IMG/VR virus record: IMGVR_UViG_3300032280_000642
Location: 86,391-150,390 of that record
Source of the DNA: a virus
Lineage: Duplodnaviria > Caudoviricetes
Length of the DNA stretch: 64,000 nucleotides
Reading direction: 5' to 3' (one strand)
The position numbers and the translations under genes were made by a program. A model generated the notes under the pieces. It was not told where the DNA came from. It made no database searches and saw nothing but the letters and a program-made list of their open reading frames with translations. Below, piece after piece: positions 9,289 to 41,303 of this stretch. Position 1 is the first letter of the stretch, and every line of letters starts with the position of its first letter.

Positions 9289-10254
9289 ATGGCAAAGAAA
9301 CATGTCAGTGATGAAGACGACGACTTCGAAAATGACTTCGATGAGATTGAAGATTTTGAAGGTCCTTCTATGGAAGAATTTGATGAAGAAGATTCTGATG
9401 ATTCCAGTGACTCTGGTTTAGACTTTGGTGATGATGAGGATTTAGATATAATCATTGAAATAGATGAAGATGATTTAGATCTTGATTTAGAACCAGAAGT
9501 AGAGAAAGTAATTGACACTATTGAAGAGGATATTGTTTTGTCTAAACATAAAATAGAAGGAAAACACTCATTAAAGTATGATTCAATCTTTAAAGGTAAG
9601 AAAGAGGAAGCAGTTGATGAAGACGATACTTCAGATTTATTCTCCGGTTATTACAGAGAAACAATAGAAGTGGATAAAGGTTCTAACTATCATTTTGAAT
9701 CAATTGATAATGAAATGTATATTAGAACAAAATTAGTTAAAGAAAGAGTTTATTTCGTATTAGGAGAACATACTGCAATAAACTTCTTGAATAACAGAAG
9801 AAAACCATCAAGAGTAGATTTTAACAATTATTACTCTTTATTAAAAATTCATCTTAAAGATGAAAGCTTTACAAATGTTGAACTTTTTAATGAACTATCA
9901 GTTTACTTTTCTGATAATTTATTCAATATGTTTAAACTATTAGATAACAAGTGGCGTAATTTAATAATTACTGAATTACAAGACCACATTGGAAAAAATA
10001 TTAATTCAAAAGATATTACAAATAGAAATATCTATGAAGGAACAGAAATCGAATTTGTTTGGGATGATCCAATTACAGAAGAAGAAAAGATTATTACTGG
10101 TGTTGTAATGGAAACAGACTACGATACTAGTACTTTTAAAGTGGATTCGTATGAAAATATCTATATTGTAGATATTAAAAATATTACGAAAATTTTAAAT
10201 AATACTAAATTCAAGTATAACCTAAACAAACTCAACAACATAGATTTTTTATAA
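9289..10254 (+). CDS. hypothetical protein with very acidic N-terminal third
   Basis: ORF between the helicase and NrdA; about 80 aa D/E-rich region. Confidence 0.75.
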   Translation: MAKKHVSDEDDDFENDFDEIEDFEGPSMEEFDEEDSDDSSDSGLDFGDDEDLDIIIEIDEDDLDLDLEPEVEKVIDTIEEDIVLSKHKIEGKHSLKYDSIFKGKKEEAVDEDDTSDLFSGYYRETIEVDKGSNYHFESIDNEMYIRTKLVKERVYFVLGEHTAINFLNNRRKPSRVDFNNYYSLLKIHLKDESFTNVELFNELSVYFSDNLFNMFKLLDNKWRNLIITELQDHIGKNINSKDITNRNIYEGTEIEFVWDDPITEEEKIITGVVMETDYDTSTFKVDSYENIYIVDIKNITKILNNTKFKYNLNKLNNIDFL

Positions 10255-10354: not shown

Positions 10355-12904
10355 ATGAGCATGATAAAAGTAATGAAAAGAAATGGTAAGAAAGAGCCAG
10401 TCATGTTAGACAAAATCTTAGACAGAATAACACAACAAACTTATGGTTTAGACCAAAAGTGGATTGTTCCTTTTGAAGTTGCCCAAAAGGTAATCGAAGG
10501 AATTATGCCAGACATTCAAACTTCTGTTTTAGATCAACTAGCAATGGAGACTGCAGCATCTCTTACAACAAAACACCCTGACTATTCAACATTAGCGGCA
10601 AGATTAGCAATTACGGCATTACACAAAGAAACTAAGAAAAGTTTTTCAGAAACTGTTTCTGACTTATACAAATACGTAGATCCAAAAACTAGAAAGCACT
10701 CACCGATTGTTTCTAAAACTTTCTACGATATTGTAAAAAAACACGCAGACGAATTAGACTCTGCGATTGTACACTCCAGAGATCATAACTTTGATTACTT
10801 TGGATTCAAAACATTAGAAAAATCATATCTATTGAAACTTGACGGTAAAGTTGCCGAAAGACCTCAATATATGTATATGAGAACTGCACTACAAGTTTGT
10901 GGTGAAGACATACAAGGTGTTATCGATACTTATAACTTACTTTCAGAAGGTTATTACACACACGCTACACCAACATTATTCAACTCTGGAACAACAAGAC
11001 CACAATTATCTTCTTGTTTCTTACTTGATACAGAATCAGATTCTATCGAAGGTATTTTCAATACTTTAAAAGAATCTGCACAGATTTCTAAAAATGCAGG
11101 TGGTATTGGTATCTCTTTTACAAAAGTAAGAGCAAAAGGTACTTATATCGCAGGAACTAACGGTACTTCAAATGGTATTATTCCTTTCCTAAAAATCTTC
11201 AACGAAACTGCAAGAGCAGTAGACCAAGGTGGTGGGAAAAGAAAAGGATCTATTGCAATTTATATGGAACCTTGGCATGCAGACATTATGGACTTCTTAG
11301 ATTTAAGAAAAAATCAAGGTAAAGATGAAATCAGAGCGAGAGATTTATTCTTAGCTATGTGGACCAATGACTTATTTATGGAAAGAGTTGACTTAGACGA
11401 AGATTGGTCTTTAATGTGTCCACACGAATGTCCTGGGTTAACTGAAACTTATGGTCAAGAATTTAGAGATTTATACATTGGTTATGAATCAGAAGGAAGA
11501 TTTAAAAGAGTAGTTAAAGCTAGAGAAGTATGGAATAAAATCTTAGAATCTCAAATTGAAACTGGAACTCCTTATATCTTATATAAAGACTCTATCAACG
11601 AGAAGTCTAACCAATCAAACATTGGTGTAGTTAGAAGTTCTAATTTGTGTGCAGAAATTGTGGAGGCCACTGGAATTACTAAAGTTCAGAAAGAAATTCT
11701 TCAAAATAAAGAATTATTGGAAAGTTTAGGATTAGGTTCATTCTACGGTGAAGAATCTGTAAATGAAACTGCAGTTTGTAACTTAGCTTCTATTGCACTT
11801 CCTAAGTTTGTAAATAAAAACAAAACTTATAACCATAACAAGTTATTTGATGTTGCTTATCAAGCTACTATAAACTTAAATAAAGTTATTGATGTAAATT
11901 ACTATCCATCAGAAGCAGCTAGATTCTCAAACTTATTACATAGACCAGTTGGTTTAGGTGTTCAAGGATTAGCAGACGTATTCTTTTTATTAGGAATTAC
12001 TTATGATTCTGATGAGGCAAAATCATTAAACAAAGAGATTTTTGAAACTATTTACTATGCTTCAATTAAAGCTTCTTGTGATTTAGCTAAAGTAGAAGGA
12101 GCCTACCCAACATTTGCTGGATCTCCAATTTCAGAAGGTAAATTCCAATTTGACTTATGGGGAACAAAACCAACAAAAAGATGGGATTGGGACAAGTTAA
12201 GAGAAGACATTAAAAAATATGGTGTTAGAAACTCTTTAACTACTTGTATTATGCCAACTGCATCAACTGCATCTATCTTAGGAAACGAAGCAAGTTGTGA
12301 AGCTCAAACTTCAAATATGTACACAAGAGGTGTTTTATCTGGTACTTTTATCATTGTAAACAAATACCTTGTAAAAGAGTTAGTTAAATTAGGTATCTGG
12401 TCTGATAACATTAGAAGAAAGATTATTGCAGAGAATGGTTCAGTTCAAAACATACCTGAAATTCCTACTAATGTAAAAGAAATATTTAAAACAGTTTATG
12501 AGATTAAACAAAGAGACGTAATTGATATGGCTGCAGAAAGAGGTGCATTTATTGATCAAACTCAATCAATGAACATCTTTATGGATTCTCCAAACTTCGC
12601 AAAATTGACAGCAATGCACTTTTACGGATGGGGAAGAAGAGCTCTTATGAAAGATGAAAATGGTGTTGAAATTATCCCACAAGGAGAAAACACAGAAGTA
12701 ATCTATGATAAAGCGGGGAAACCAAGATTTTACAGAGAGAAAAAATCAGCTTTAAAAACTGGTATTTACTATCTAAGAAATAAAGCAGCAGGTGATGCAG
12801 TTAAATTCACAACTCAAGAAGAAGTGAAATCTACTGAAGATCAAATGGCAGAAATCAGTTGTTCGTTAGACAACCCAGATGATTGTTTAGCATGTGGTTC
12901 ATAA
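10355..12904 (+). CDS. nrdA: ribonucleoside-diphosphate reductase class Ia alpha subunit with ATP cone
   Basis: VMKRNG ATP cone; ATPTLFNSG..QLSSCFL; DQGGGKRKG; SNLCAEI; CNLAS; MPTASTA; LKTGIYYLR; C-terminal CLACGS. Confidence 0.97.
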   Translation: MSMIKVMKRNGKKEPVMLDKILDRITQQTYGLDQKWIVPFEVAQKVIEGIMPDIQTSVLDQLAMETAASLTTKHPDYSTLAARLAITALHKETKKSFSETVSDLYKYVDPKTRKHSPIVSKTFYDIVKKHADELDSAIVHSRDHNFDYFGFKTLEKSYLLKLDGKVAERPQYMYMRTALQVCGEDIQGVIDTYNLLSEGYYTHATPTLFNSGTTRPQLSSCFLLDTESDSIEGIFNTLKESAQISKNAGGIGISFTKVRAKGTYIAGTNGTSNGIIPFLKIFNETARAVDQGGGKRKGSIAIYMEPWHADIMDFLDLRKNQGKDEIRARDLFLAMWTNDLFMERVDLDEDWSLMCPHECPGLTETYGQEFRDLYIGYESEGRFKRVVKAREVWNKILESQIETGTPYILYKDSINEKSNQSNIGVVRSSNLCAEIVEATGITKVQKEILQNKELLESLGLGSFYGEESVNETAVCNLASIALPKFVNKNKTYNHNKLFDVAYQATINLNKVIDVNYYPSEAARFSNLLHRPVGLGVQGLADVFFLLGITYDSDEAKSLNKEIFETIYYASIKASCDLAKVEGAYPTFAGSPISEGKFQFDLWGTKPTKRWDWDKLREDIKKYGVRNSLTTCIMPTASTASILGNEASCEAQTSNMYTRGVLSGTFIIVNKYLVKELVKLGIWSDNIRRKIIAENGSVQNIPEIPTNVKEIFKTVYEIKQRDVIDMAAERGAFIDQTQSMNIFMDSPNFAKLTAMHFYGWGRRALMKDENGVEIIPQGENTEVIYDKAGKPRFYREKKSALKTGIYYLRNKAAGDAVKFTTQEEVKSTEDQMAEISCSLDNPDDCLACGS

Positions 12905-13018: not shown

Positions 13019-13045
13019 AAACTTTTTCTAATTTAGTAATAGAAT
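13019..13045 (+). promoter_or_regulatory. putative phage middle-class promoter for the ncRNA locus
   Basis: AAAC at 13019-13022, 17-nt spacer, TAGAAT at 13040-13045; same layout as the promoters of the replication genes. Confidence 0.55.
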
Positions 13046-13054
13046 AATATAACT

Positions 13055-13115
13055 AGTAGCAAATCTAACAGATACATCGAAATGGTATTCAACAAAACTC
13101 TGTGGATAAATTACT
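13055..13115 (+). ncRNA. candidate short Y-RNA-like RNA 1 (about 61 nt)
   Basis: Nested pairing AGTAG/TTACT, ATCT/GGAT, ACAGA/TCTGT; carries TAGCAAA..CTAA..GATACATCG; lies upstream of the Ro60 gene. Confidence 0.55.
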
Positions 13116-13144
13116 CTGGTTTTATTTATAAAAAAACGCAAACA

Positions 13145-13365
13145 TAGCAAAGTTCTAAGATACTTCGTATATTATACAACTATCAGAAAGAACGTATAGA
13201 GACGACTACTCTATGCTACCATGTAAGGGCATTAGCGCTTGCCTCTGGTCGAAAAGTCAGGAATTCATAAGTTTCCTTCAAAAATATGAGTGAGATGTTG
13301 CTTTAAATATCGGCAAAGTTAAGTAGAATTCTTTGCGTCGCTTAGGCTAATATTCTTGTTTGCTA
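13145..13365 (+). ncRNA. candidate long Y-RNA-like RNA 2 (about 221 nt, multibranched)
   Basis: Terminal stem TAGCAAA 13145-51 / TTTGCTA 13359-65; CTAAG 13155-59 / CTTAG 13341-45; 7-8 consecutive internal hairpins; GATACTTCG motif shared with RNA 1. Confidence 0.62.
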
Positions 13366-13374
13366 AATTATAAT

Positions 13375-13414
13375 AAGACCAGATTTACAGAAATGTAATT
13401 CTGGTCTTTTTTTT
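13375..13414 (+). terminator. intrinsic terminator between the ncRNAs and the Ro60 gene
   Basis: AAGACCAGA-TTTACA-GAAA-TGTAAT-TCTGGTCTT followed by a T run. Confidence 0.85.
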
Positions 13415-13446
13415 ACAAAAAAACGAAATAAAAATAAAATAATAAT

Positions 13447-14895
13447 ATGTCAAAATTTAACACAACCGTAAAAGAACCAAAAACAAAAACTATAAACCTA
13501 GCAGGTGGTGAAGCTTATTCTCAAACAAACGAATTAGCTTTAGTATCTATGTTACTAACTTCATTTGTGAATGATCAGTTCTACAAGTCTGGTAATGATA
13601 CATTAAAAGATTTAAGAAGTTTGATTAAGAAAGTAGATCCTGAGTTTGCCGCGAAAGCTGCTATTTATGCTCGTGATAAATTTGGTATGAGAAGTATTAC
13701 TCACGCTTTGGCAGGTGAATTGACATCAGAATTAAAAGGTAGTGAATTAGGTAAAAACTTCTATGACAAAGTTGTAGTTCGTGTTGATGATATGACTGAG
13801 ATTATGTCATACTACTTAATGCACAAAACAAGTAAAGACAATCCAAAGTTCCCAAACTCTTTGAAAAAAGGATTTGCAAAAGCTTTCGATAAATTTGATG
13901 CGTACCAGTTAGCGAAATATTCTGGTAAAAACAAAGACCTTAAATTGGTTGACTTGGTGAACATTGTACACCCTGTTCCAACTGATAGAAACAAAACTGC
14001 CTTAGAATTACTTGTTAAAGGTGATTTGAAAAACACTGAAACTTGGGAAGCTAAACTTTCTCAAGCAGGTCAAGTAGCCGAAAATGAAGAAGATTTAACT
14101 CAATTAAAAGCTGATGCTTGGACTGATTTAATCACTTCAAGAAAAATTGGTTATTTTGCACTTTTAAGAAACCTAAGAAATATCTTAAATCAAGCACCTA
14201 ACGCAGTTCCGGCTGCTTGTGAGTTGTTAGTAGATGAGAAAATGATTAGTAAATCAAGAGTTTTACCTTTTAGATTTGCGACTGCTTATGAAGAAATCAG
14301 TAAAATGGGTTCTTCAAAAGGAGTTAGAGAAGTATTGGTTGCAATAAACCAAGCGTTAGAGGTTTCAATGTGTAATGTTCCTAAGTTTGATGGTGATACA
14401 TTAGTTGTTATGGACGTTTCTGGATCAATGAGTGGAAGACCTTCTGAGATTGCTTCATTATTTGGTGCGATTTTAGCAAAATCTAATAATGCGGATGTTT
14501 TAACATTCGCCAACAGAGCTGATTACAAGTCATATAATCCATTGGATTCTGTTATGACAATTAGAAATAGTTTTAGATACTCTGGTGGTGGTACGAATTT
14601 CAAATCAATCTTTACAACTGCTAATAAAAAGTACGATAGAGTAGTAATACTCTCAGACCTTCAAGGTTGGATTGGTTACACAAGTCCAAGTGCTGAGTTT
14701 AAACAATACAAGAAAACATATGATGCGAATCCTTATGTTTACTCTTGGGATCTTGCCGGACTCGGCACAATGCAGTTTCCAGAAAACAATGTATTTGCTT
14801 TGGCTGGTTTCTCTGATAAAGTTTTTGACGTAATGAAGATGATGGAGATGGATAAAAAAGCTCTTTTCAATGAAATTAAAGCTATTCAACTTTAA
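13447..14895 (+). CDS. Ro60/Rsr-family RNA-binding protein (TROVE plus vWA domain)
   Basis: TINLAGGEAY, YARDKFGMRS, FDAYQLAKY, TWE..LS, ALLRNLRN, LPFRF..AY; MIDAS DVSGSMS..GGGT..ILSD. Confidence 0.93.
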   Translation: MSKFNTTVKEPKTKTINLAGGEAYSQTNELALVSMLLTSFVNDQFYKSGNDTLKDLRSLIKKVDPEFAAKAAIYARDKFGMRSITHALAGELTSELKGSELGKNFYDKVVVRVDDMTEIMSYYLMHKTSKDNPKFPNSLKKGFAKAFDKFDAYQLAKYSGKNKDLKLVDLVNIVHPVPTDRNKTALELLVKGDLKNTETWEAKLSQAGQVAENEEDLTQLKADAWTDLITSRKIGYFALLRNLRNILNQAPNAVPAACELLVDEKMISKSRVLPFRFATAYEEISKMGSSKGVREVLVAINQALEVSMCNVPKFDGDTLVVMDVSGSMSGRPSEIASLFGAILAKSNNADVLTFANRADYKSYNPLDSVMTIRNSFRYSGGGTNFKSIFTTANKKYDRVVILSDLQGWIGYTSPSAEFKQYKKTYDANPYVYSWDLAGLGTMQFPENNVFALAGFSDKVFDVMKMMEMDKKALFNEIKAIQL

Positions 14896-14896
14896 T

Positions 14897-14925
14897 TAAA
14901 AACCCACCAATTGGTGGGTTTTTTT
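14897..14925. terminator. bidirectional intrinsic terminator
   Basis: AAAAACCCACCA-AT-TGGTGGGTTTTT. Confidence 0.85.
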
Positions 14926-15688
14926 ATCTCCATATTTTTTCGAGGTTTATCTTAGAAGTCATCTCAACTACTTTACCATCTTTAATAAGTGAGTATCTTT
15001 GTATAGGAGCAAACATTGTTATAATTTTCTTAACTTTTACTATTTCTTGTGATTCCATATCAAAGTTAAAGATTTGTAAAAGGTTTTCAATTTCACTATA
15101 TTTTAAATGGTTTTTATGACCAACAAAATGAGTAAAGTCATAGAAGTAAGAATTATAAACACCTGAATTTTCTTCTGCTGATTTTATAATTAAAAAGTTA
15201 GTTAAACTATTTTCAACTCCAATTGAGGGTAATGTGTATTTATATCCATCAACTACAAAACATCTATGTTTATAATCGTAGTAGTTTATCAATTCTCCTA
15301 GTTGAAAGTAGTTAAAGTTTTTTACTCCAAATTCAATTTTTTCATTTTTATCTTGTTCTTTATCAAAATAAACTAGATTGATTGGTCTTCCTTTTGTTAG
15401 TTTAACAATTTCTAAGAAAATAAATATAACGTCAATTGATTTAAGGTCTTCATATTTATATCCTTTACTTAGGGTTATATTTCTTTCAACTATTTTCTTA
15501 ATGTAATAGATTACGACACCAACGTCATCTCTAACGTAGTTTTTTTCATAATCTTCTATATCTTTTTTACTTGCAGCCCTAACCGTTACTTCAAAGTCTT
15601 CTTTATAGAATAATCCTTGAGATGGTAACAGTTTAATATCTATCTTTCTTTTACTTACAAATAATTTTCTAAAAAATTCTATTATCAT
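14924..15688 (-). CDS. putative baseplate hub assembly protein (T4 gp26-like)
   Basis: LLPSQGLFY..VTVRA..DIE..DL...D..FIFL.I pattern. Confidence 0.45.
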   Translation of the reverse strand: MIIEFFRKLFVSKRKIDIKLLPSQGLFYKEDFEVTVRAASKKDIEDYEKNYVRDDVGVVIYYIKKIVERNITLSKGYKYEDLKSIDVIFIFLEIVKLTKGRPINLVYFDKEQDKNEKIEFGVKNFNYFQLGELINYYDYKHRCFVVDGYKYTLPSIGVENSLTNFLIIKSAEENSGVYNSYFYDFTHFVGHKNHLKYSEIENLLQIFNFDMESQEIVKVKKIITMFAPIQRYSLIKDGKVVEMTSKINLEKIWR

Positions 15689-16959: not shown

Positions 16960-18591
16960 ATGCCAGCTACTTTTAGCATAAACTCCGGACAATTAACTGA
17001 ATCAACTAGAAAACCAAATGTTCTTGCGGTTTTAAATGATATTCAAGATAATACACAAAAGTTAATATCTCCAAGAGATGTTAGAGATGCTTTTTTATCA
17101 ACTTGGGCAAATTCTCCTTTTAAGATAACAACACCAAACTCACTTGCAAATTATGAGTATATAGGATTAGATTCTAGTAATCCAGGTAATAGAGATATTA
17201 AACAAAAAATACTTTTAGGTAAAAGATCATATGGTAATTTAGATGTTATGAATAATTTCCTTTTAAGTTCTGAAGCCGATATATTCTTATTTAATACAAA
17301 ACCCGATACTATAACACAAAGTTCTACTAAAATTGCGATTTTATCTGGTACTAATTCTAATTTATACAAATTTGCTCCTTATATAGAGTCATATACAAAC
17401 CCTTCAGAAACTAAGACAGATCTTAATATTATTAATCCATCACAAAATGGTGCTATAAATCTTTTCTCACAAACAGGTCGAGTTTCAATTAATGATATTG
17501 TATTTCCTACAGTTGCAGAAACATTTGGTTCTGCATCAGATGGTAGAATATTAAGATATAGAGGAGTTTATCCAAGTGGTTATTTAAAATGGGAAGAACC
17601 TACTATCACACTTAATGTTATTGGTACTCCTGGGTATGCAACAAATATCTATGGTAGCACAGTTAGTTTAAATGGTTATTCATTAGAGTTTATTGAACCT
17701 GATGATGTTCCTACAACTATTGGTGGTATAGAAATGGGTGCATCATTTTCTGGTAATTCATTCTATAATGGTTCAGGTTATCAAAACTGGCCAATTACAG
17801 AGGTTCTAAAAGAACTTTTATATCCTTATACTCCACCAGTTTTAGAACTAAGTATTGTAAATAATGTAACTGGTACAATATATGCAGAGGTTGGTAAAAC
17901 TGCTTCAGCCGTTTTAACGTACAAAGTAACAACTTATCAAAGAAATGTAGCTGAGAGGATTTTTAATTATCAAGTTGTTCCTCAAACAAGTTATGTTAAC
18001 TTGTCACTTTCTGGAGTACCTGGTACTTTCGCAGGTGCAACTATTTCAGTTGCTACATATAGTGCAGGTGGTCCGGCTGGATCATTTATAAAAACTTGGT
18101 CATTAAGTGTATCTGATAGTTCACTAATAACTTTCTCATATAGTGCAACTGCTTCATTAGAATTTGTTTATCCAATCTGGTATGGTTTCACATCATCATT
18201 AATAACGAATCCAACAACACTTGGAAATATAACACCTCATTTAAGTAAGCTAATAGCACCTTATCCTGGTGCAAGTAATTCACATACATTACCATTTAAT
18301 GGAGAAGGTTATTTATACTTTATACATCATAAGGATCAAAACTGGAATAATACTTCAGTTGCTCCTGAATTTAGTGGATTACAACAGATAAAGGATCCAA
18401 ATGGATATATTATACATAATAGATTATCTCCAGAATATTCTGGATTTACAAGTTCAGAAATAAACCATCCAGTAATACCAGGTGTTGGAGGATATCCAGA
18501 ACTATTTGTAGTTTGGAGAACTAAATACCTATGTTCATATCCAGGACCGAGTGGTGGAAATGGAACAGGTGATTTTAAATTTATATTTTAA
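16960..18591 (+). CDS. putative virion structural protein (paralog A)
   Basis: S/T/G/P-rich beta-type composition; collinear with 18598..20118. Confidence 0.65.
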   Translation: MPATFSINSGQLTESTRKPNVLAVLNDIQDNTQKLISPRDVRDAFLSTWANSPFKITTPNSLANYEYIGLDSSNPGNRDIKQKILLGKRSYGNLDVMNNFLLSSEADIFLFNTKPDTITQSSTKIAILSGTNSNLYKFAPYIESYTNPSETKTDLNIINPSQNGAINLFSQTGRVSINDIVFPTVAETFGSASDGRILRYRGVYPSGYLKWEEPTITLNVIGTPGYATNIYGSTVSLNGYSLEFIEPDDVPTTIGGIEMGASFSGNSFYNGSGYQNWPITEVLKELLYPYTPPVLELSIVNNVTGTIYAEVGKTASAVLTYKVTTYQRNVAERIFNYQVVPQTSYVNLSLSGVPGTFAGATISVATYSAGGPAGSFIKTWSLSVSDSSLITFSYSATASLEFVYPIWYGFTSSLITNPTTLGNITPHLSKLIAPYPGASNSHTLPFNGEGYLYFIHHKDQNWNNTSVAPEFSGLQQIKDPNGYIIHNRLSPEYSGFTSSEINHPVIPGVGGYPELFVVWRTKYLCSYPGPSGGNGTGDFKFIF

Positions 18592-40664: not shown

Positions 40665-41303
40665 ATGAAAAAATACAACAAATATACCTATATTTTTCCT
40701 CCCAGACCTCGTAATGCCATAATGTCTAGTGATTTAGACTTCTGGGATAATAACACACTTTTAGCACAGCCCAAGTTGAATGGATCAAACTGCACCATTT
40801 ACACTAATGGTGAAAAACACGTTGTAATGAATAGACACAATGGTAGACTTATAAACTTTAGACTTACTGATGAAGAGATAAAATCTATGTACCGTGGAAA
40901 TGGTGAGTGGATGGTAATCAATGGCGAATATATGAACAAATCAAAAAGTGATGAAAACCGTAAAGTTTTCAATCACAAGTTTGTTATATTCGATATTCTT
41001 GTTTTGAATGGTGATTCTTTAGTAGGAAAAACTTTTGAAGAAAGAGTTATATTACTTGACCAGTTGTATGGTACAAATAACTCTGATAAACCTTACTTAT
41101 ACGGTATCTCAGAAAACATCTATAGAGTGAAGTCTTATACATCAAACTTCTTAGAGTTGTATAATGATTTAGTAGAAATTGATATGATCGAAGGCTTGGT
41201 ACTAAAGAGAAAGTCTGCTCGTTTAGAAGCAGGTACTTCTGAGTTGAACAATGTGAAATCTCAAATTAAATGTAGAAAGGCTACCAAAAATTATAGATAC
41301 TAA
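40665..41303 (+). CDS. ATP-dependent ligase-family adenylation domain only (no OB fold)
   Basis: QPKLNG (motif I), NGE (III), FDIL (IIIa), EGLVLK (IV), IKCRK (V). Confidence 0.8.
   Translation: MKKYNKYTYIFPPRPRNAIMSSDLDFWDNNTLLAQPKLNGSNCTIYTNGEKHVVMNRHNGRLINFRLTDEEIKSMYRGNGEWMVINGEYMNKSKSDENRKVFNHKFVIFDILVLNGDSLVGKTFEERVILLDQLYGTNNSDKPYLYGISENIYRVKSYTSNFLELYNDLVEIDMIEGLVLKRKSARLEAGTSELNNVKSQIKCRKATKNYRY

What the first reader, a model, noticed from the sequence alone, without database searches (positions are those of the whole stretch)
13145..13365. RNA 2 is a multi-spoke wheel of back-to-back hairpins
Seen: inside the closing stem, short hairpins follow each other, most with almost no linker: GTAT/ATAC (13167-77), GTATAGAG/CTCTATGC (13194-216), GGGCA/TGCCT (13227-44), CTGGT/GTCAG with a CGAAAA loop (13245-60), GGAA/TTCC (13260-76), TTCA/TGAG (13277-90), GATGTT/AATATC (13294-311) and GCAAAG/CTTTGC (13313-36). 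G-U pairs are frequent, as expected for selection at the RNA level. Several loops are about 7 nt (e.g. ACGACUA). Inference: the loops could be decoys or docking sites, such as anticodon-loop mimics or nuclease/toxin sponges, displayed on a Ro60-protected scaffold. RNA 1 has a single tiny hairpin in the same position, which suggests a modular, expandable effector domain.
Basis: partly seen in the sequence, partly recalled or inferred. Interest (0 to 1): 0.75.

Follow-up and report, generated by a model that had tools for sequence, protein, structure and literature searches.

The report
Oversized phage Y RNA with pseudoknot
Just upstream of a huge phage's Ro60 gene lies a conserved 226-nt structured RNA that keeps the Ro60-binding stem of bacterial Y RNAs but carries a many-hairpin, pseudoknotted domain where the usual tRNA-like part would be: a new, unusually large Y RNA variant whose partner is unknown.

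Summary
All eight hairpins exist as written, and the + strand folds modestly better than shuffles (z -2.2). Thirty-two distinct homologues from IMG/VR phage contigs give strong covariation.

What relatives support:
- A bulged closing stem, 13138-47 with 13355-63.
- A second stem, the invariant AUACUUCG motif, and hairpins H1, H2, H3, H6 and H8.

A third is in the wrong register. The 7-nt "anticodon-like" loop is not conserved.

RNA 2 is a Y-RNA-type partner of the adjacent Ro60/TROVE gene. Its scaffold matches the neighbouring minimal RNA 1. It also matches YrlA-like RNAs found next to more distant phage Ro60 genes. It has no tRNA-like T/D arms and no Rfam match. At 214-320 nt it is two to three times the known Y RNA size.

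The modular "expandable effector domain" idea is supported. The decoy/sponge idea is untested. Binding to Ro60, expression and the effector's partner are all inferred. I rate it a new variant of a known kind, of moderate to high interest.

The parts
13040..13045 (+). TAGAAT, a -10-like box about 7 nt upstream of RNA 1; likely promoter for an RNA 1-RNA 2 transcript (inferred)
   Evidence: Sequence. A TAnAAT-like box sits at the same place in relatives in alignment A3. The consensus scan is not significant in this AT-rich DNA.
13053..13119 (+). RNA 1: minimal Y-like RNA. CUAG-U-AG/CUCUGG bulged-U stem, second stem, AUACAUCG motif, tiny apical part
   Evidence: A3 has 14 sequences, 95.8% of cells paired against 30-61% when slid, and the second stem covaries.
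13138..13147 (+). RNA 2 closing stem P1, 5' strand (GCAAACA, bulged U13145, AG)
   Evidence: 99.3% paired in 32 sequences; 7 of 9 pairs change on both sides.
13154..13159 (+). Stem P2, 5' strand (UCUAAG; 9 bp UAGUUUGAG/CUUAGGCUA in most relatives)
   Evidence: 95.4% paired; A-U, G-U and G-C alternate at one pair.
13160..13167 (+). AUACUUCG, the family's signature motif. AUAC aligns with the YUAY motif of YrlA
   Evidence: Invariant in A2 and A4. TACTTCG is about 17-fold enriched next to Ro60 genes. YrlA model alignment in L035.
13167..13177 (+).
   Evidence: Compensatory variants in part of clades A and B; absent in others.
13178..13186 (+). AACUAUCAG, a conserved unpaired motif (AACUAUGA in most relatives)
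   Evidence: Conserved columns in A2 and A4.
13194..13216 (+).
   Evidence: Independent folds of 15 relatives give the same hairpin with different stem sequences.
13218..13249 (+). P4 (ACC 13218-20 with GGU 13247-49) enclosing variable hairpin H3 (13223-27/13238-42 plus 13229-30/13235-36)
   Evidence: UACC/GGUG changes to UACU/AGUG in 5 of 15 sequences. The enclosed segment always folds as a hairpin of 19-51 nt. L002 covaries with the 13223-42 register.
13250..13258 (+). A-rich linker CGAAAAGUC (GAAAAAGUC in relatives). Relatives insert 0-2 extra hairpins after it
   Evidence: A2 and A4.
13259..13277 (+).
   Evidence: 94% paired in A2 and 84.5% in A4; covaries (CAAGAA/UUCUUG). Missing as a whole in L006, L009, L013, L056 and L106.
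13289..13311 (+).
   Evidence: Both stems covary. L058 has S1 AGGU/ACCU and S2 UGGCC/GGCCG.
13314..13335 (+).
   Evidence: Covaries: CGAAG/CUUCG, CAGAG/CUCUG, UGGAG/CUCUA.
13341..13346 (+). P2, 3' strand (CUUAGG)
13355..13363 (+). P1, 3' strand (CUUGUUUGC)
13377..13414 (+). Intrinsic terminator: 12-bp hairpin with GAAA loop (13377-13406) and a U8 tract
   Evidence: Stem 100% paired in 32 sequences, with 4 pairs changed on both sides. Sequence.
13447..14895 (+). Ro60 (TROVE + vWA) gene, the presumed protein partner
   Evidence: Pfam TROVE E 4e-20. PHROG 850 RNA-binding protein E 1.5e-43. Best solved relative is Thermus phage phiLo Ro60, 9KOP/9L5Y, E 7e-26.

Best explanation
RNA 2 is a non-coding Y-RNA-type partner of the phage Ro60 protein encoded 32 nt past its terminator. 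It spans 13138-13363 and is probably made together with RNA 1 from a promoter near 13040. Transcription ends at the terminator 13377-13414.

Its 5' and 3' ends form a long interrupted stem: P1 with a bulged U, an internal loop, then P2, followed by AUACUUCG. This is the Ro60-docking scaffold. The neighbouring minimal RNA 1 has the same scaffold, and so do YrlA-like RNAs of more distant phages.

YrlA carries a tRNA-like module in the apical position. RNA 2 instead carries a 181-nt domain (168-274 nt in relatives). The conserved core of that domain is H2, P4, an A-rich linker, an H-type pseudoknot and H8. Peripheral hairpins H1, H3, H6 and others are gained and lost between relatives.

By analogy with characterised Y RNAs, Ro60 holds the stem. 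The apical domain then recruits another macromolecule or gates access to the Ro60 ring, redirecting RNA decay or repair during infection. The most likely partner is a host or phage RNA-processing enzyme.

Shown: structure, conservation, scaffold homology and gene linkage. Inferred: expression, Ro60 binding and the partner.
For: - Location: on the same strand, directly upstream of a TROVE/vWA gene.
- Structure: in 32 distinct homologues, 92.4% of cells are paired against 37-47% for slid controls. 27 of 45 pairs change on both sides. P1 is 99.3% paired, with GCAAACA-U-AG/CUUGUUUGC replaced by GAGGACA-U-GG/CCUGUCCUC in one clade.
- Strand: the + strand is indicated by U-G pairs in P2, the terminator and the z-scores.
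- Shared scaffold: RNA 1 has the same bulged-U stem, second stem and AUACNUCG.
- Motif linkage: TACTTCG occurs 67 times in 55 kb flanking Ro60 genes, 13 times in 183 kb elsewhere and 8 times in 238 kb of the opposite strand.
- Link to YrlA: more distant Ro60 loci carry RF02553 (YrlA) matches of 34-52 bits (E 1e-3 to 8e-9) holding the same motif. AUAC aligns to the model's CUAC there.
- Not coding: no ORF longer than 40 aa.
- Precedent: phiLo Ro60, the closest solved relative, binds two Y-like RNAs encoded upstream of its gene and forms a ternary complex with host PNPase (PMC12135203). Y RNAs tether Ro60 to PNPase in D. radiodurans (PMC4201824).
Against:
- The GNCGAA motif of YrlA is only approximated: AGCGAUAG in most relatives and AGCAAAG in the window.
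- No T or D arm, no Rfam match.
- The size is far outside the 80-130 nt reported for characterised Y RNAs (PMC4201824).
- No PNPase or RtcB gene in the 150-kb record, which is estimated to be 25% complete.
- Thermodynamic z-scores are modest.
- The homologues are related, so covariation counts are not independent events.
Confidence: 0.78

Rival explanations
1. Decoy or sponge: the hairpin loops mimic anticodon loops or other nuclease targets and soak up host defence nucleases or toxins, displayed on a Ro60-stabilised scaffold.
For: Peripheral hairpins are highly variable and are gained and lost between close relatives. This could fit an arms race. One relative (L007) carries a T-arm-like hairpin in the H3 position. 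Distant relatives embed whole tRNA-like modules. The phage encodes an Rnl2-family RNA ligase, so RNA damage is relevant to it.
Against: No loop has a conserved 7-nt anticodon-like form. The window's ACGACUA loop is a GACA tetraloop in most relatives. No tRNA or YrlA model matches. The conserved parts are helices, a pseudoknot and A-rich linkers, not the loops. Variability of peripheral helices is also what neutral drift in large structured RNAs looks like.
Confidence: 0.1
2. Cis-acting leader: RNA 2 with its terminator is an attenuator through which Ro60 controls its own synthesis. It would be a 5' UTR element rather than a free RNA.
For: The terminator lies 14 nt after P1 and 32 nt before the Ro60 start codon. 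No convincing separate promoter is present. The arrangement is conserved in all relatives.
Against: A 180-nt conserved apical domain with a pseudoknot is far more than a Ro60 binding site needs. RNA 1 has the same scaffold without being next to the terminator. In distant loci Y-like RNAs also lie downstream of Ro60. A strong 12-bp terminator with U8 argues for an abundant discrete RNA. This reading can coexist with the main one.
Confidence: 0.07
3. A highly diverged but still tRNA-like YrlA orthologue, whose T and D arms are hidden by divergence and insertions.
For: Scaffold homology with YrlA-like RNAs. GGUGAAAAAGUCC resembles the hairpin GUAGG-UGAAAGU-CCUAC, which sits where the T arm would be in one L029 RNA (my reading, not called by any model). 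A T-arm-like insert occurs in L007.
Against: The GG of GGUG covaries with the upstream CUACC, not with the downstream GUCC. There is no D-arm-like element with conserved GG. ARAGORN and the Rfam tRNA and YrlA models find nothing even at E<=10.
Confidence: 0.04

Closest known systems
YrlA (Rfam RF02553), bacterial and phage Y RNA-like RNA (Chen et al. 2014, PMC4201824)
   Same: Encoded beside Ro60 on the same strand. The 5' and 3' ends form stem, internal loop, stem. A CGA-containing motif sits at the top of the first stem, and YUAY (here AUAC) follows the second stem. The apical position holds the effector module. YrlA-like RNAs with the identical UACUUCG motif flank more distant members of this phage Ro60 family.
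   Different: No T arm, acceptor-like stem or D arm. The apical domain is 168-274 nt of 7-10 helices with an H-type pseudoknot. Total length is 214-320 nt against about 110. No model match at E<=10. The GNCGAA motif is only approximated.
Yrl1 and Yrl2 of Thermus phage phiLo with phiRo60 (PMC12135203; PDB 9KOP, 9L5Y)
   Same: phiRo60 is the closest solved relative of the protein (E 7e-26). Two Y-like RNAs are encoded in tandem upstream of the Ro60 gene. They have a stem-bulge-stem scaffold with a CGA(A) motif.
   Different: Per the paper's figure legend, the phiLo RNAs are small, with one or two hairpins. RNA 2 here is a large multi-helix RNA. phiLo binding to Ro60 and PNPase was shown experimentally; nothing has been shown here.
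YrlB (Salmonella) and other minimal Y RNAs
   Same: RNA 1 of this locus (13053-13119) is the counterpart: the scaffold with hardly any apical module, paired with a larger sibling in the same locus.
   Different: This applies to RNA 1, not RNA 2.
Metazoan Y RNAs and D. radiodurans Yrn1
   Same: A bulged helix formed by the RNA ends serves as the Ro60 site. The apical loop or domain serves as the effector part; Yrn1 tethers PNPase.
   Different: The bulge here is a U, not a C. The sequence motifs differ. The apical domain is much larger and is folded rather than a large internal loop.

Membership tests
YrlA (RF02553) | Encoded within a few kb of a Ro60/TROVE gene, on the same strand | tested here: met
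   RNA 2 ends 84 nt before the Ro60 start codon, same strand. The arrangement is the same in the Ro60-linked loci that carry RNA 2, in LR745206, and in the 30 of 78 pattern-scan contigs that have Ro60 downstream, many of which are the contigs again.
YrlA (RF02553) | 5' and 3' ends pair in a long interrupted stem | tested here: met
   P1 is 99.3% and P2 95.4% paired, with compensatory changes.
YrlA (RF02553) | GNCGAAN0-1G motif near the 5' end | tested here: inconclusive
   The corresponding place reads AGCGAUAG in most relatives and AGCAAAG in the window. CGA is shared, but the first G and the second A are not.
YrlA (RF02553) | YUAY motif after the second stem | tested here: met
   AUAC or UUAC is invariant. 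It aligns to the model's CUAC in the L035 YrlA-like RNA.
YrlA (RF02553) | tRNA-like domain with T arm and D arm | tested here: not met
   ARAGORN finds none. No tRNA or YrlA match at E<=10 in the window or E<=5 in L007. No conserved T- or D-loop sequences in A4.
YrlA (RF02553) | Reaches the Rfam gathering score (69 bits) | tested here: not met
   No hit at all.
Y RNA (general, functional class) | Bound by Ro60 | not testable with these tools
   Needs RIP or EMSA. Only gene linkage and motif co-occurrence are shown.
Y RNA (general, functional class) | Bulged helix formed by the RNA termini | tested here: met
   U13145 is bulged in P1. The bulged U is invariant in RNA 2 and RNA 1.
Y RNA (general, functional class) | Length 80-130 nt (all characterised Y RNAs, PMC4201824) | tested here: not met
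   226 nt in the window; 214-320 nt in 32 relatives.
H-type pseudoknot | Two stems, with the loop of the first pairing downstream, and both supported by covariation | tested here: met
   S1 is 85.6% and S2 84-90% paired, and both have pairs changed on both sides. One S2 pair reads GC 12, UA 10, AU 3. Mutually exclusive alternative folds cannot be excluded by sequence alone.

The most novel reading that the evidence does not exclude
The apical domain is a new, autonomously folding RNA module. It is not a tRNA mimic. It gives phage Ro60 a new specificity, for example by docking a particular host RNase, ribosome-associated factor or defence nuclease, or by mimicking another host RNA. Huge phages would then use swappable Y-RNA modules (minimal, tRNA-like, whole tRNA, pseudoknotted multi-helix) as a toolkit to re-aim one RNA-surveillance protein.
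Probability: 0.3. Interest if true: 0.8.

Novelty: new variant of a known kind. Interest (0 to 1): 0.6.

Why it matters
Y RNAs are thought to work as adaptors: one end holds Ro60 and the other chooses what Ro60 is coupled to. Only two kinds of bacterial effector end are characterised, a PNPase-binding loop and a tRNA-like module.

This family keeps the adaptor end and swaps in a large, conserved, pseudoknotted fold that is absent from Rfam. It occurs in dozens of large environmental phage contigs, including a 635-kb genome. That gives a concrete, testable case of effector-module exchange.

It also offers a natural series for asking what the effector end does and which host process huge phages target with Ro60. 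The series runs from RNA 1 (minimal), through YrlA-like RNAs and a whole tRNA-like insert, to RNA 2.

Tried and rejected
- Rfam at gathering and at lenient E-values on the window, on 19 close loci and on L007: only chance or terminator-driven hits such as L20 leader.
- YrlA model on the whole 150-kb record: nothing.
- ARAGORN: nothing.
- MAFFT Q-INS-i for structural alignment: not installed. Variable parts were therefore judged from per-sequence folds rather than one alignment.
- A possible helix ACUU/AAGU (P3) closing H1: both sides are nearly invariant, so it can be neither supported nor rejected.
- The variable stretch between the A-rich linker and H6 in clade B: several candidate pairings (GUCC with GGNC; a UGACU loop with a downstream AGUCA) could not be resolved. 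This stretch is absent from the window.
- An 18-nt pattern scan of IMG/VR returned 78 contigs. Only 30 have Ro60 downstream, and most of the rest are chance matches inside ORFs, so the pattern alone is not diagnostic.
- A genome-contig scan with Ro60 gave only 6 MAG contigs, at least one of which matches the viral contig behind L029 in length. No host could be inferred.
- Protein-coding reading: no ORF above 40 aa.
- A GAAA-tetraloop-receptor reading of UAUGG / CUAAG was considered and dropped as coincidental.

Full report
**Setting**

The window is part of a 150-kb IMG/VR virus record that CheckV rates 25% complete, so it comes from a huge phage. The finding lies in the 540-nt gap between the ribonucleotide reductase large subunit (10355-12904) and a 482-aa TROVE + vWA protein (13447-14895). 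That protein is a Ro60 homologue. Its closest solved relative is Ro60 of Thermus phage phiLo (E 7e-26). No ORF longer than 40 aa overlaps the gap.

**Check of the observation**

The + strand folds at -54 kcal/mol, z = -2.2, with 5 of 200 dinucleotide shuffles as good. The - strand gives z = -0.55. Twelve homologues give + strand z from -1.1 to -6.3. Thermodynamics alone is therefore modest. The comparative evidence is what decides.

**Relatives**

A scan of IMG/VR with the Ro60 protein gave 38 loci. A BLAST of the gap also found LR745206, a 634,780-bp uncultured phage. A profile search placed an RNA 2 homologue directly upstream of Ro60 in 28 loci. A pattern scan added more. In total there are 32 distinct sequences (alignment A4).

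**Conserved structure**

On A4, a model of 45 pairs has 92.4% of cells paired, against 37-47% when the 3' partners are slid. Twenty-seven pairs change on both sides (23-sequence version).

The closing stem P1 is 13138-13144 plus 13146-13147 with 13355-13363, and U13145 is bulged. It is 99.3% paired. One clade has GAGGACA-U-GG/CCUGUCCUC in place of GCAAACA-U-AG/CUUGUUUGC.

The elements then follow in this order:
- An internal loop.
- P2 (13154-59 with 13341-46; 9 bp with three wobble pairs in most relatives).
- The invariant AUACUUCG (13160-67).
- H1, then a conserved unpaired AACUAUGA-like motif.
- H2, with a conserved GAC in its loop.
- P4, UACC/GGUG. It changes to UACU/AGUG in five sequences and encloses a hairpin, H3, of very variable length and sequence.
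- An A-rich linker.
- H6.
- A second A-rich linker.
- An H-type pseudoknot.
- H8.
- The 3' strands of P2 and P1.
- A 12-bp terminator with a U8 tract (13377-13414).

All window pairs were verified.

**The pseudoknot**

Both pseudoknot stems covary. S1 reads AGU(GA)/(UC)ACU, CGUG/CACG, GGAU/AUCC, GGGUG/CAUCC or AGGU/ACCU. S2 reads GAUGG/CUAUC, UAUGG/CUAUA, GAUGU/AUAUC, GAAAA/UUUUC or UGGCC/GGCCG.

With the outer 3-4 pairs of S1, the loops are 1-2, 2-3 and 4-8 nt. That geometry is feasible. In L003 and L036 the 3' element instead matches the 5' strand of S1 (GUGG/CCAC, GUAU/AUAC), so a switch between folds cannot be excluded.

**Verdict on the eight hairpins**

- #1, #2, #5, #7 and #8 are supported.
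- #7 is pseudoknot stem 2.
- #3 is real but in another register (13223-42), which L002 supports by compensatory change.
- #4 CTGGT/GTCAG is not supported. Its GG pairs with the upstream CUACC instead.
- #6 TTCA/TGAG shows only wobble pairs and overlaps S1.
- The 7-nt loop ACGACUA is a GACA tetraloop in most relatives, so loops as anticodon mimics find no support.

**What it is**

RNA 1 (13053-13119) has the same scaffold. It has CUAG-U-AG/CUCUGG with a bulged U, a covarying second stem, and AUACAUCG followed by almost nothing.

The heptamer TACTTCG occurs 67 times in 55 kb flanking Ro60 genes. It occurs 13 times in 183 kb elsewhere on the same strand and 8 times in 238 kb of the other strand.

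In loci whose Ro60 is only 26-53% identical, the motif sits inside RNAs that match Rfam YrlA at 34-52 bits. Those scores are below the family's gathering score, but the E-values are 1e-3 to 8e-9. These RNAs have clear T and D arms. In the L035 alignment, AUAC falls on the model's CUAC, which is the YUAY motif of Chen et al. GGUGAUAG falls on the GNCGAA region (PMC4201824).

One RNA in L027 even embeds a complete tRNA-Tyr-like cloverleaf in the same stem. RNA 2 therefore shares the YrlA-type Ro60 scaffold. Its apical module, however, is not tRNA-like. ARAGORN, Rfam tRNA and Rfam YrlA find nothing in the window, in the whole record or in 19 close loci.

From P1 to P1 it measures 226 nt in the window and 214-320 nt in relatives. 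The apical domain is 168-274 nt. All characterised Y RNAs are 80-130 nt (PMC4201824).

**Modularity**

Whole helices differ between close relatives:
- H6 is absent in five sequences.
- The L008 group has two extra hairpins after the A-rich linker.
- L039 has an extra hairpin after AACUAUGA.
- L007 carries a T-arm-like hairpin (UAGG-UUCAAUC-UCUA) in the H3 position. It is nearly identical to the T arm of the L027 tRNA-like RNA.

The core is P1, P2, the two motifs, H2, P4, the linker, the pseudoknot and H8. It persists across clades whose interior is otherwise hard to align.

**Mechanism**

Shown: a conserved, + strand, non-coding structured RNA that is physically linked to Ro60 and shares a scaffold with RNA 1 and with YrlA-like RNAs.

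Inferred from established work on Ro60: the stem docks on Ro60, and the apical domain couples Ro60 to something else or gates its cavity. The relevant work is D. radiodurans Yrn1 tethering PNPase, and phiLo Yrl1/2 binding phiRo60 and host PNPase (PMC4201824, PMC12135203).

The conserved A-rich single strands displayed between rigid helices are plausible S1/KH-domain sites, but this is speculation.

The 150-kb record has no PNPase or RtcB gene. It does have an Rnl2-family RNA ligase (window 40764-41228). That fits the RNA-repair context proposed for TROVE proteins of jumbo phages (PMC7824862).

RNA 1 and RNA 2 are only 18 nt apart and are followed by a single terminator. They are probably cut from one transcript, with Ro60 made by read-through.

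**Rivals**

These are a decoy or sponge, a cis-acting attenuator, and a cryptic tRNA mimic. All three are listed with their evidence. None is excluded by experiment. The last is the one most directly contradicted here.

**Novelty**

Ro60 genes in jumbo phages and phage YrlA-like RNAs are known. A large pseudoknotted non-tRNA Y RNA is not in Rfam 15, and I found no description of one in the papers searched. I rate it a new variant of a known kind.

Noticed in passing
window 13053-13119: RNA 1 is a minimal Y-like RNA with the same bulged-U stem, second stem and AUACAUCG motif as RNA 2. It lies only 18 nt upstream of RNA 2, so the two are probably co-transcribed and then processed.
   Followed up: yes
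L027 2873-2946 (also L028): A complete tRNA-Tyr(GTA)-like cloverleaf, called by ARAGORN and Rfam tRNA at 52 bits. It sits inside a Y-RNA stem right after a CUACUUCG motif, as the third of three tandem Y-like RNAs upstream of Ro60.
   Followed up: partly
L034, L037, L038 (whole loci): More distant phage Ro60 genes sit inside tRNA gene arrays: 13 tRNAs in L037, 7 in L038, and a tmRNA plus 4 tRNAs in L034. L034 and L037 also have sub-threshold YrlA matches next to Ro60. The window itself has no tRNA in 64 kb.
   Followed up: partly
L007 about 2722-2745: The variable H3 spoke of this RNA 2 homologue contains UAGGUUCAAUCUCUAACGAG. This is almost identical to the T arm and flank of the L027 tRNA-like Y RNA, which suggests exchange of modules between Y RNAs.
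   Followed up: partly
L003 and L036, pseudoknot region: In these two sequences the downstream element pairs with the 5' strand of S1 (GUAU/AUAC, GUGG/CCAC, compensatory between the two) instead of forming S2. This may be an alternative fold or a switch.
   Followed up: no
window 40764-41228: An Rnl2-type RNA ligase domain (PF09414, 33.6 bits) in a 213-aa open frame. No RtcB or PNPase domain is present in the 150-kb record.
   Followed up: partly
window 13412-13440: A promoter-like TTTACA-17-TAAAAT overlaps the terminator's U tract and ends 7 nt before the Ro60 ATG. It would give a leaderless mRNA, but such matches are at chance level in this AT-rich DNA (3 found, 3.1 expected).
   Followed up: no
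L058 11403-11700: A GC-richer RNA 2 homologue on a 118-kb contig, with fully compensated pseudoknot stems and a different terminator. It would be useful for future covariation analysis.
   Followed up: partly
window 14924-15688 (-), 9289-10254 (+), 16960-18591 (+): Three neighbouring ORFs have no Pfam, NCBIfam or PHROG match.
   Followed up: partly
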